Origin: Escherichia coli O127:H6 str. E2348/69
GTDB lineage: Bacteria; Pseudomonadota; Gammaproteobacteria; Enterobacterales; Enterobacteriaceae
Assembly: GCF_000026545.1 (NCBI RefSeq)
Contig: NC_011601.1
Strand: one strand, 5' to 3'
DNA: 64,000 nt
Shown: piece after piece, positions 24,790 to 27,700 of the stretch
Position numbering within the stretch: position 1 is the stretch's first letter
Layout: each line of letters begins with the position of its first letter
Made by a program: the position numbers

Positions 24790-27700
24790 TAAATGCGTCT
24801 GACAGCAAAACAGGTGACATGGCTGAAAGTTTGCCTACATCTTGCCGGATTGTTGCCGTTTCTCTGGCTGGTCTGGGCGATCAATCACGGTGGACTAGGT
24901 GCCGATCCGGTGAAAGATATTCAGCATTTTACCGGTCTCACTGCACTGAAATTTTTGCTTGCGGCCTTGTTAATCACACCTCTGGCACGCTACGCAAAAC
25001 AGCCGTTATTGATACGCACTCGCCGCCTGTTAGGCTTATGGTGCTTTGCCTGGGCGACACTGCATTTAACCAGTTACGCATTGCTGGAGTTGGGCGTGAA
25101 TAATCTGGCGTTATTAGGTAAGGAGTTAATTACCCGGCCTTATTTAACGTTAGGAATTATCAGCTGGGTTATTTTGCTTGCTTTAGCGTTCACTTCAACC
25201 CAGTCGATGCAGCGAAAACTCGGCAAACACTGGCAACAGTTGCATAACTTCGTCTATCTTGTCGCGATCCTGGCCCCAATACATTATCTGTGGTCAGTGA
25301 AGATTATTTCACCGCAGCCACTCATCTACGCTGGGCTGGCTGTACTGCTTTTAGCCTTACGGTATAAGAAGTTGCTTTCCCTTTTCAACCGGTTACGCAA
25401 GCAGGCCCACAACAAATTATCTCTATAACTTCATATTGCCGACAAACTTCGCGTTATCCCGGCCGGATGCGGCGCGAGCGCCCTATCCGGCCCACACAGA
25501 TCGCATCAAGTTATGTTTCGTTTGTCATCAACCTTTCATCACCAGAATAATTTATTTTATTTCAATAAGATAGTTCAATACGCCTGAGAATACCATGCTC
25601 TCATTTCCTAATGAGTTGTTGCATTTTTCATATGTTACAATATAACATTACACATCATGTACATTAACTCTGGAGGAAATTGTTTTGGCGATTCGTCTTC
25701 ATAAACTGACTGTTGCTTTAGGTGTCTTTATTGTTAGCGCTCCTGCCTTTTCGCATGGTCATCATTCTCATGGCAACCCCTTAACAGAGGTCGAACAAAA
25801 AGCTGCTAATGGTGTTTTTGATGATACCAATGTACAAAACCGAACGCTCAGTGACTGGGATGGAGTCTGGCAATCCGTTTATCCTTTACTGCAAAGTGGC
25901 AAACTTGACCCCGTCTTTCAGAAGAAAGCGGATGCAGATAAAACCAAAACATTTGCTGAAATTAAAGATTATTATCGCAAAGGTTATGTGACAGATATCG
26001 AGATGATTGGCATTGAGGACGGCATTGTCGAATTCCATAGAAATAATGAAACAACATCCTGTAAATATGATTACGATGGATACAAAATACTCACCTATAA
26101 ATCAGGCAAGAAAGGCGTTCGTTACTTATTCGAATGTAAAGATCCTGAAAGTAAAGCCCCTAAATATATACAATTTAGCGATCATATAATTGCACCACGA
26201 AAATCATCTCATTTTCACATTTTTATGGGTAATGATTCCCAGCAATCTTTATTGAATGAAATGGAAAACTGGCCAACGTATTATCCCTATCAGTTGAGTA
26301 GCGAAGAAGTGGTCGAGGAGATGATGTCTCATTGATTTTTTTGCGCTGACTTCAGTTATTTAACAGAACAGTGCCTGGTAGTAACAACTATAATTTACCA
26401 AGACAAATAAGTAAGAAAAACTCAGACACGCTCATACTTGAGTCGTGTCTTTTTTATTATGTCTGTAGAAAAAAACCGAGAAAAAGGCGAACGATAAATA
26501 CACAACTCAGCTATACAGACTGGCAGCGCAAATGTCTCCAGGAGCAAGTCATCTATCATGGTAAAGCTAACCAGAAATATAGGTTAATTTTTGTGTTTAA
26601 ACCTTTTTTACTTGTTAGTATGATACAAAGGCTTTCAAAAAAGCTGGGAAATTCAACAACTCTTGGAAATTATGGACTTTGTCCCGCGGCTTTAATCTGA
26701 CGGCCGCGCTCCTTTTTTGGCTCAATTATTGACCCCTTCTCTACGCAACTTCAGTTCCCGCCAGCAACTTTGCGGCAGTTTCATAGGATCAATGTCTAAA
26801 AGAATAATGGTGACCGATAAGAAAACGACTGAATAACTGTAGATTTTCGCTCGAAACCTTCCTGTCAGACCCATAGCGAATCAAGTGCTGAATGTCACAG
26901 TATCGAACAGAAAACAGTGACGATCTAACCCTTCAAGAATATCCTACGATTGTTCTGTTTAGGAAAAGCAAGGCGGGAAGTCAGGAGATAAGTCATTGAT
27001 AAAGTGGCGGAGAGAGGGGGATTTGAACCCCCGGTAGAGTTGCCCCTACTCCGGTTTTCGAGACCGGTCCGTTCAGCCGCTCCGGCATCTCTCCGTTCAG
27101 ATGGTTGCCATGATGCCAGGAAATTTGGCATTTTAACAGTCCCTGTCCGTGCAATTTTGTTCAAGTGACGAGTTTGCGAGCAAAACGATGATTAAGTGGC
27201 CCTGGAAAGTACAAGAATCAGCACATCAAACTGCCCTTCCCTGGCAGGAAGCACTATCGATCCCCCTTTTAACGTGTCTGACAGAACAGGAACAAAGCAA
27301 ATTAGTCGCTCTTGCCGAACGTTTTTTACAACAAAAACGGCTTGTTCCTTTACAGGGCTTTGAGCTGAATTCATTAAGAAGCTGCCGGATAGCACTTCTA
27401 TTTTGCCTGCCCGTTCTGAAGTTAGGACTGGAATGGCTGGATGGTTTTCATGAAGTCTTAATTTATCCTGCGCCATTTGTGGTCGATGATGAATGGGAAG
27501 ACGATGTCGGTCTGGTGCATAACCAACGTATTGTTCAGTCAGGTCAGAGCTGGCAGCAAGGGCCTATCGTTTTGAACTGGTTGGATATACAAGATTCTTT
27601 TGATGCTTCTGGTTTTAACCTGATTATTCATGAAGTCGCTCATAAGCTGGACACCCGTAACGGCGATCGCGCCAGCGGAGTTCCCTTTATTTCGTTGCGT

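What the first reader, a model, noticed from the sequence alone, without database searches (positions are those of the whole stretch)
26336..27004. No intact yodB-like gene between zinT and tRNA-Ser
From memory, K-12 has a cytochrome b561-like membrane protein gene (yodB) here. In this window the 670-bp interval contains only a 109-aa ORF without membrane-protein character, suggesting replacement or decay.
Basis: inference. Interest (0 to 1): 0.25.

Follow-up and report, generated by a model that had tools for sequence, protein, structure and literature searches.

The report
Common yodB-less zinT–serU spacer allele
This E. coli strain (E2348/69) does lack the small cytochrome gene yodB that K-12 has between zinT and a serine tRNA. 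This is a common natural gene presence/absence variant, most likely because K-12-type strains gained the gene, not because this strain's copy decayed.

Summary
Window 26336-27004 is the 669-bp spacer between zinT and tRNA-Ser(CGA) serU. It has no yodB and no yodB remnant. The 109-aa ORF is a chance reading frame.

The window is 100% identical to the E. coli E2348/69 chromosome, where RefSeq also annotates nothing here. Against K-12, the first 222 bp (26336-26557) stand in place of a 995-bp K-12 segment that carries yodB. The remaining 447 bp are about 96% identical.

Both forms are common. The 222-bp allele is in 2271 of 5426 complete E. coli genomes, and the yodB allele is in 3114.

E. albertii has the yodB-less layout, colinear with E2348/69 across the K-12 junction. 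No other genus sampled has yodB beside zinT. YodB's closest relatives outside E. coli (76-77% identical) are cargo genes in Citrobacter-type prophages.

So "replacement" is right structurally and "decay" is not supported. The event was most likely a gain of a yodB cassette just after the zinT terminator in K-12-type lineages. This is an ordinary accessory-gene polymorphism of low interest.

The parts
25685..26335 (+). zinT (metal-binding protein ZinT), left border of the interval
   Evidence: 216-aa ORF; annotated as zinT in the identical E2348/69 record.
26336..26557 (+). 222-bp segment specific to the yodB-less haplotype. It occupies the place of a 995-bp K-12 segment (L001 2152-3146) that contains yodB.
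   Evidence: Pairwise blastn and global alignment with K-12. Present once per genome in 2271 of 5426 complete E. coli genomes at 93-100% identity. Colinear homologue in E. albertii: local alignment z = 25 against shuffles, about 67% identity.
26424..26460 (+). zinT intrinsic terminator: 11-bp bulged hairpin (26424-26450) followed by TTTTTTATTAT
   Evidence: RNA fold -17 kcal/mol, z = -4.4. The hairpin is conserved in K-12 and in E. albertii, where an A-to-G change in the 5' arm is matched by a T-to-C change in the 3' arm (read directly). It is the only part of the 222 bp with significant similarity to K-12. In K-12 the U-tract is replaced by TGTATATTAATAAG.
26461..26557 (+). 97 bp with no counterpart in K-12 but with a homologue in E. 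albertii. This is the site where K-12-type strains carry about 867 bp including yodB.
   Evidence: Against the K-12 995 bp z = -0.2; against E. albertii z = 8.3.
26558..27004 (+). Spacer shared by both haplotypes (about 96% identical to K-12); non-coding, serU-proximal
   Evidence: blastn gives 95.98% over 547 bp including flank. Per-segment identities are 93.8% and 96.6%. Nothing is annotated here in MG1655 or E2348/69. There is no Rfam family apart from the tRNA.
26371..26700 (+). 109-aa GTG-start ORF, judged a chance ORF and not a gene
   Evidence: Listed. No Pfam match at E <= 1. Not annotated by PGAP. Frameshifted in strain 97_3250 and truncated in HS-02. It spans the zinT terminator.
27005..27094 (-). 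serU, tRNA-Ser(CGA), right border of the interval; an integration hot spot in other strains
   Evidence: ARAGORN and Rfam tRNA at 57 bits. Islands or prophages interrupt the locus at this point in other genomes.

Best explanation
The interval is the intact, non-coding zinT-serU spacer of the 'yodB-less' haplotype of E. coli. It contains, in order:
- the zinT 3' region with a classical intrinsic terminator;
- about 100 bp of haplotype-specific spacer;
- about 450 bp of spacer shared with all E. coli, leading to serU.

Nothing has decayed here. This arrangement is most likely ancestral for Escherichia. K-12-type lineages (K-12, ATCC 8739, O157:H7, O55:H7 and others) acquired a promoter-plus-gene yodB cassette of about 0.87 kb. 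The cassette landed immediately 3' of the zinT terminator hairpin, displaced about 97 bp, and removed the terminator's U-tract. Relatives of this cassette travel as prophage cargo genes.

Shown by tool results: the structure of the two alleles, their frequencies, the colinearity with E. albertii, and the mobility of YodB homologues. Inferred: the polarity of the event (gain rather than loss) and the cassette's origin from a mobile element.
For: Identity and alleles:
- The window is 100% identical to E2348/69, and RefSeq annotates no gene between zinT and tRNA-Ser.
- 222 bp here stand against 995 bp in K-12, flanked by about 96% identical DNA.
- The 222-bp allele is in 2271 genomes and the yodB allele in 3114 of 5426 complete E. 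coli genomes.

Polarity:
- The E. albertii type strain has msrQ-zinT-[567 bp, no yodB]-serU-mtfA.
- Its spacer aligns with E2348/69 through the whole 222 bp and across the K-12 junction (z = 25; last 97 bp z = 8.3). Those 97 bp have no K-12 counterpart (z = -0.2).
- Among the 80 zinT loci kept (best of 155 confirmed relatives) from a scan of one genome per species, yodB lies beside zinT only in E. coli-derived sequence.

Mobility of YodB:
- Identity drops from 99% within E. coli straight to 77% or less outside it. There are no intermediate full-length orthologues of the kind seen for ZinT at 89-94%.
- The 76-77% homologues sit on the opposite strand between the lysis genes and the HNH/terminase genes of prophages.
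- Other homologues lie in unrelated chromosomal contexts in Salmonella and Citrobacter.
- Nucleotide homology between K-12 and the prophage copies begins 88 nt upstream of the yodB ATG, so promoter and gene travel together.

No remnant and no replacement gene:
- There is no YodB-like coding remnant anywhere in the window.
- The terminator hairpin is conserved in all three lineages. It is followed by a U-tract in E2348/69 and E. albertii but not in K-12.
Against: - Only one informative outgroup genome was available (E. albertii). The other Escherichia hit (MOD1-EC7003) has the spacer largely deleted and an island in serU, so it says nothing about polarity. E. fergusonii, E. marmotae and E. ruysiae could not be examined.
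- The K-12 insert has no terminal repeats or target duplication that would prove an insertion.
- Its G+C content (41%) is like that of its surroundings (37-40%), so composition does not mark it as foreign.
- The first roughly 90 bp after the zinT stop codon are also strongly diverged between the haplotypes. A simple insertion does not explain this; it suggests either an old dimorphism or import of a whole divergent segment by homologous recombination.
- The yodB-less allele also occurs in large genomes that carry the yersiniabactin island at asnT (strains 97_3250 and 2015C-4944). The distribution may therefore be shaped by recombination rather than by one clean event. The phylogroup of these two strains was not determined.
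Confidence: 0.7

Rival explanations
1. The zinT-yodB-serU arrangement of K-12 would be ancestral for E. coli. An ancestor of the B2-type lineages would have lost yodB through a deletion-plus-substitution event, and the 222 bp would be what is left.
For: K-12-type strains are the majority (3114 against 2271 genomes). yodB is dispensable enough to be frameshifted in some yodB+ strains. The spacer is deletion-prone: there are further deletions in HS-02, E. albertii and MOD1-EC7003. No insertion signatures flank the K-12 segment.
Against: No trace of yodB remains. The 97 bp at the junction are unrelated to any K-12 sequence but homologous to E. albertii, so a plain deletion cannot produce this allele. 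E. albertii shares the yodB-less colinear layout at about 67% identity, which rules out recent transfer. No other genus sampled has zinT-yodB adjacency. The 222-bp allele is more diverse (93-100%) than the yodB segment (mostly 98-100%), which suggests it is at least as old.
Confidence: 0.22
2. The 109-aa ORF (26371-26700) is a real gene that functionally replaces yodB in this lineage.
For: It is the only ORF longer than 50 aa in the interval. It is intact in E2348/69, an ST131 isolate and NU14.
Against: It has no Pfam match and is not called by PGAP in any record examined. It has a GTG start, and no ribosome-binding site was examined. It reads straight through the zinT terminator hairpin. It is frameshifted in 97_3250 and truncated in HS-02. 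It spans two segments with different evolutionary histories.
Confidence: 0.03
3. The missing gene is an assembly or sequencing artefact of this window.
For: None.
Against: The same 222-bp allele, once per genome, is found in 2271 independent complete genomes. The window is identical to the finished E2348/69 chromosome.
Confidence: 0.01

Closest known systems
E. coli K-12 zinT-yodB-serU interval (b1973-b1975)
   Same: Same flanking genes in the same order and orientation (msrP, msrQ, zinT ... serU, mtfA, asnT). The serU-proximal 447 bp are about 96% identical. The zinT terminator hairpin is conserved.
   Different: K-12 has 995 bp including the 176-aa cytochrome b561 homologue YodB where this window has 222 unrelated bp. 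The K-12 hairpin lacks the U-tract that follows it here.
E. albertii NBRC 107761 zinT-serU interval (L004)
   Same: No yodB. The spacer is colinear with the window's 222 bp and beyond, with the same terminator hairpin followed by a U-tract.
   Different: About 67% identity in the 222 bp. About 112 bp corresponding to window ~26617-26725 are missing, so the interval is 567 bp rather than 669 bp.
Prophage cargo genes ('morons') encoding YodB-like cytochrome b561 in Citrobacter-type prophages (P0004, P0010)
   Same: These relate to the K-12 allele, not to this window. The proteins are 76-77% identical to YodB, and nucleotide homology includes 88 nt upstream of the start codon.
   Different: They sit between the phage lysis and packaging genes, whereas K-12 yodB has no phage genes around it. 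The window has neither.

Membership tests
YodB / prokaryotic cytochrome b561 (Pfam PF01292) | An ORF of about 175-180 aa that matches PF01292 (K-12 YodB scores 79.7 bits) | tested here: not met
   None of the three largest interval ORFs scanned (109, 50 and 39 aa) matches any Pfam family at E <= 1. A tblastn of YodB against the window finds only noise.
yodB pseudogene (decayed copy) | Residual nucleotide or translated similarity to yodB at the orthologous position | tested here: not met
   blastn with word size 7 and a global alignment find no similarity outside the zinT terminator hairpin. Local alignment of the last 97 bp against the K-12 995 bp gives z = -0.2.
yodB-less zinT-serU haplotype of E. 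coli | The 222-bp segment directly after the zinT stop codon, joined to the shared serU-proximal spacer, single copy | tested here: met
   2271 genomes carry it, 2270 of them over at least 80% of its length, with a median of one place per genome. The full 1516-bp zinT-serU-mtfA stretch is colinear in many strains.
Rho-independent (intrinsic) terminator, for the hairpin after zinT | A stable GC-containing hairpin immediately followed by a U-rich tract, downstream of a stop codon | tested here: met
   The hairpin at 26424-26450 folds at -17 kcal/mol with z = -4.4, followed by UUUUUUAUUAU. The simple scanner missed it because of the one-base bulge. Termination itself was not tested experimentally.
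Transposon or IS-mediated insertion (for the K-12 yodB segment) | Terminal inverted repeats and/or a target-site duplication at the two junctions | tested here: not met
   Only short scattered repeats that do not sit at the junctions.
Integrase-mediated island in serU | Integrase gene plus a duplicated 3' end of the tRNA flanking the inserted DNA | tested here: not met
   serU is intact with mtfA directly beyond it, and no integrase is in the interval. Such islands do exist in other strains.

The most novel reading that the evidence does not exclude
yodB is not a core E. coli gene. It is a domesticated cargo cassette of the prophage-moron type (promoter plus cytochrome b561 gene) that inserted exactly at the zinT terminator in the ancestor of the K-12-type lineages. 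The insertion destroyed the terminator's U-tract and may have coupled yodB to the zinc-starvation-induced zinT transcript. B2-type strains such as E2348/69 preserve the ancestral, tightly terminated zinT locus.
Probability: 0.5. Interest if true: 0.25.

Novelty: already known. Interest (0 to 1): 0.1.

Why it matters
It matters little. The result shows that the gap in this window is a normal allele, not damage, and that the 109-aa ORF should not be annotated.

There is a small by-product. yodB, usually treated as a K-12 housekeeping 'y-gene', is an accessory gene present in about 57% of complete E. coli genomes. Its nearest relatives ride in prophages, which is useful context for anyone studying cytochrome b561-type proteins or zinT regulation across pathotypes.

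Tried and rejected
- Remnants of yodB: searched by tblastn (E up to 100) over the whole window and by blastn with word size 7. None found.
- Rfam at E <= 1 over 25400-27300: only the tRNA, plus sub-threshold noise.
- Promoter and terminator scan: three promoter-like sites, no more than the 1.9 expected by chance. No terminator was called because the real hairpin has a bulge.
- Possible small RNA at 26596-26725: its fold is not better than shuffled sequence (z = -0.6). Not pursued further.
- Repeats at the borders of the K-12 insert: nothing positioned at the junctions.
- G+C content as a marker of foreign DNA: uninformative, 41% against 37-40% for the surroundings.
- Phage collection searched with YodB: only the chromosomal flank of a serU prophage record and distant Acinetobacter hits.
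- More Escherichia outgroups:
  - The single genome-contig scan returned only E. albertii and one unnamed Escherichia species.
  - The ZinT protein search collapses close relatives into one 90% cluster and gave no further species.
  - The partial 84-87% YodB hits turned out to be frameshifted E. coli copies, not orthologues from other species.
- Literature: no paper in the library links yodB with zinT or with phylogroup B2.

Full report
**What is at the coordinates**

The window carries msrP, msrQ and zinT (25685-26335, + strand). A 669-bp interval (26336-27004) follows, then tRNA-Ser(CGA) on the minus strand (27005-27094), then mtfA and tRNA-Asn.

The largest ORF in the interval is the 109-aa GTG-start frame at 26371-26700. 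All others are 50 aa or shorter. The stretch 25685-27200 is 100% identical to the chromosome of enteropathogenic E. coli E2348/69. RefSeq annotates nothing there between zinT and the tRNA.

**Is yodB missing?**

Yes. K-12 records have zinT, then yodB (531 bp, 176 aa, PF01292 cytochrome b561), then serU, in a 1442-bp interval.

Pairwise comparison gives three results:
- The last 100 bp of zinT are 96% identical between the two strains.
- Window 26558-27004 plus flank is 96% identical to K-12.
- Window 26336-26557 (222 bp) lies opposite 995 bp of K-12 (L001 2152-3146), with no significant similarity except a roughly 30-bp hairpin.

A tblastn of YodB against the entire window finds nothing. This is a clean non-homologous replacement with no pseudogene remnant.

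**How common is each form?**

Among 5426 complete E. coli genomes, 2271 carry the 222-bp segment, a median of once per genome and at 93-100% identity. 3114 carry the K-12 yodB segment, 3104 of them at 95% identity or more.

- Named yodB-less strains: E2348/69, ST131 isolates, NU14 and APEC O2:K1:H5.
- Named yodB+ strains: K-12, C600, ATCC 8739, O157:H7, O55:H7 and O145.

Two large genomes with the yersiniabactin island at asnT, 97_3250 and 2015C-4944, also have the yodB-less allele. Phylogroups were only sampled through named strains; they were not tabulated.

**Anatomy of the yodB-less spacer**

An 11-bp bulged hairpin starts 88 nt after the zinT stop codon, at 26424-26450. It is followed by TTTTTTATTAT, folds at -17 kcal/mol, and has z = -4.4 against shuffled sequence. 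This is a classical intrinsic terminator for zinT.

The hairpin is conserved in K-12 and in E. albertii. In E. albertii an A-to-G change in the 5' arm is matched by a T-to-C change in the 3' arm, which I read directly. In K-12 the hairpin is followed by TGTATATTAATAAG rather than a U-tract. The K-12-specific DNA therefore begins right at the 3' foot of the hairpin.

The next 97 bp of the window (26461-26557) have no K-12 counterpart (z = -0.2). They do have an E. albertii homologue (z = 8.3).

**Which state came first?**

One scan of one genome per species with ZinT kept the 80 best zinT loci of 155 confirmed. YodB lies within 4 kb of zinT only in E. coli-derived sequence, namely K-12 and two contaminant contigs in metagenome bins.

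The E. albertii type strain has msrQ-zinT-[567 bp]-serU-mtfA with no yodB. Its spacer aligns with the window across positions 8-219 of the 222 bp and onward past the K-12 junction (z = 25, about 67% identity). That level of divergence excludes recent exchange. The other Escherichia species found (MOD1-EC7003) has most of the spacer deleted and an integrase island in serU, so it is uninformative.

YodB itself behaves like a mobile gene:
- Its identity falls from 99% within E. coli to 77% or less in everything else.
- The 76-77% homologues lie on the opposite strand between the holin/lysozyme genes and the HNH/terminase genes of prophages, the typical position of phage cargo genes.
- More distant homologues occupy unrelated chromosomal sites in Salmonella and Citrobacter.
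- K-12 shares nucleotide similarity with the prophage copies from 88 nt upstream of the ATG to the end of the gene, so a promoter-plus-gene unit is what is shared.

Together these points favour a gain of a yodB cassette in K-12-type lineages. I put this at about 0.7, against about 0.2 for loss in B2-type lineages.

The caveats are:
- Only one informative outgroup was available.
- No insertion signatures sit at the K-12 junctions.
- G+C content is uninformative.
- The roughly 90 bp between the zinT stop codon and the hairpin are also strongly diverged. This suggests an old dimorphism or import of a divergent segment rather than a simple insertion.

**The 109-aa ORF**

I judge this a chance ORF in AT-rich spacer DNA:
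- It has no Pfam match.
- It is not annotated in any record I looked at.
- It reads through the zinT terminator.
- It is intact in E2348/69, ST131 and NU14, but frameshifted in 97_3250 and truncated in HS-02.

**Comparison with what is known, and verdict**

This is a gene presence/absence polymorphism in a finished, annotated reference genome. It lies next to a tRNA gene that is a known integration hot spot, and the spacer itself is variable. Further deletions occur in HS-02, E. albertii and MOD1-EC7003, and prophages or islands sit in serU in ST131 and other strains.

I found no paper on yodB distribution in the library, but nothing here is unexpected. Interest is low.

Noticed in passing
window 26596-26725 (+): A promoter-like site (TTTAAA-17-TATGAT) is followed about 60 nt later by a GC-rich hairpin (CGCGGC...GCCGCG) and a T6 run. 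The block is nearly invariant in five yodB-less E. coli (one hairpin substitution in E2348/69, one flanking substitution in 97_3250) and is present in K-12. The whole ~112 bp is absent from E. albertii. It has no Rfam family and no annotation in MG1655, and its fold is not better than shuffled sequence (z = -0.6). It could be a small transcript or just a stray terminator.
   Followed up: partly
window 27005-27094 (serU); loci L003, L097 and hit H101: serU is an integration hot spot in other strains. An ST131 isolate has phage tail genes directly after the spacer. Escherichia sp. MOD1-EC7003 has a P4-type integrase island, with only 14 nt of the serU 3' end left beside a nearly deleted spacer. 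A GenBank record named 'phage SerU-LTIIb' ends in yodB. Many genomes match only up to a point inside the tRNA.
   Followed up: partly
loci L083-L088 (Citrobacter-type prophages): Cytochrome b561 genes whose products are 76-77% identical to YodB sit as opposite-strand cargo genes between the lysis cassette and the HNH/terminase genes of prophages. The family was almost absent from the phage GenBank collection searched.
   Followed up: partly
loci L093 and L094 (strains 97_3250 and 2015C-4944): These large (5.8-5.9 Mb) genomes carry the yodB-less allele and, about 1 kb away, the yersiniabactin island (ybtS, frameshifted integrase) at asnT. The allele may have been co-imported with the island by recombination of the flanks.
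   Followed up: no
window ~28400-29300 and ~36000-61000: In E2348/69 the yeeJ adhesin gene after asnT is reduced to a pseudogene of about 0.9 kb. An integrative element of about 25 kb sits next to the tRNA-Asn at about 61.1 kb. It carries an integrase, HEPN/DUF262 genes, an MvdC/MvdD-type ATP-grasp gene, pilV, a MobQ relaxase pseudogene and RepL.
   Followed up: no
locus L099 (E. coli CP027586): yodB is frameshifted (126-aa product) in some yodB+ E. coli, which suggests weak selection on the gene even where it is present.
   Followed up: no
window 25451-25492: A REP-like palindromic element between msrQ and zinT gives a sub-threshold Rfam naRNA4 match (29 bits against a gathering score of 59.5). 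The msrQ-zinT spacer is unusually diverged between strains (89-94%).
   Followed up: no
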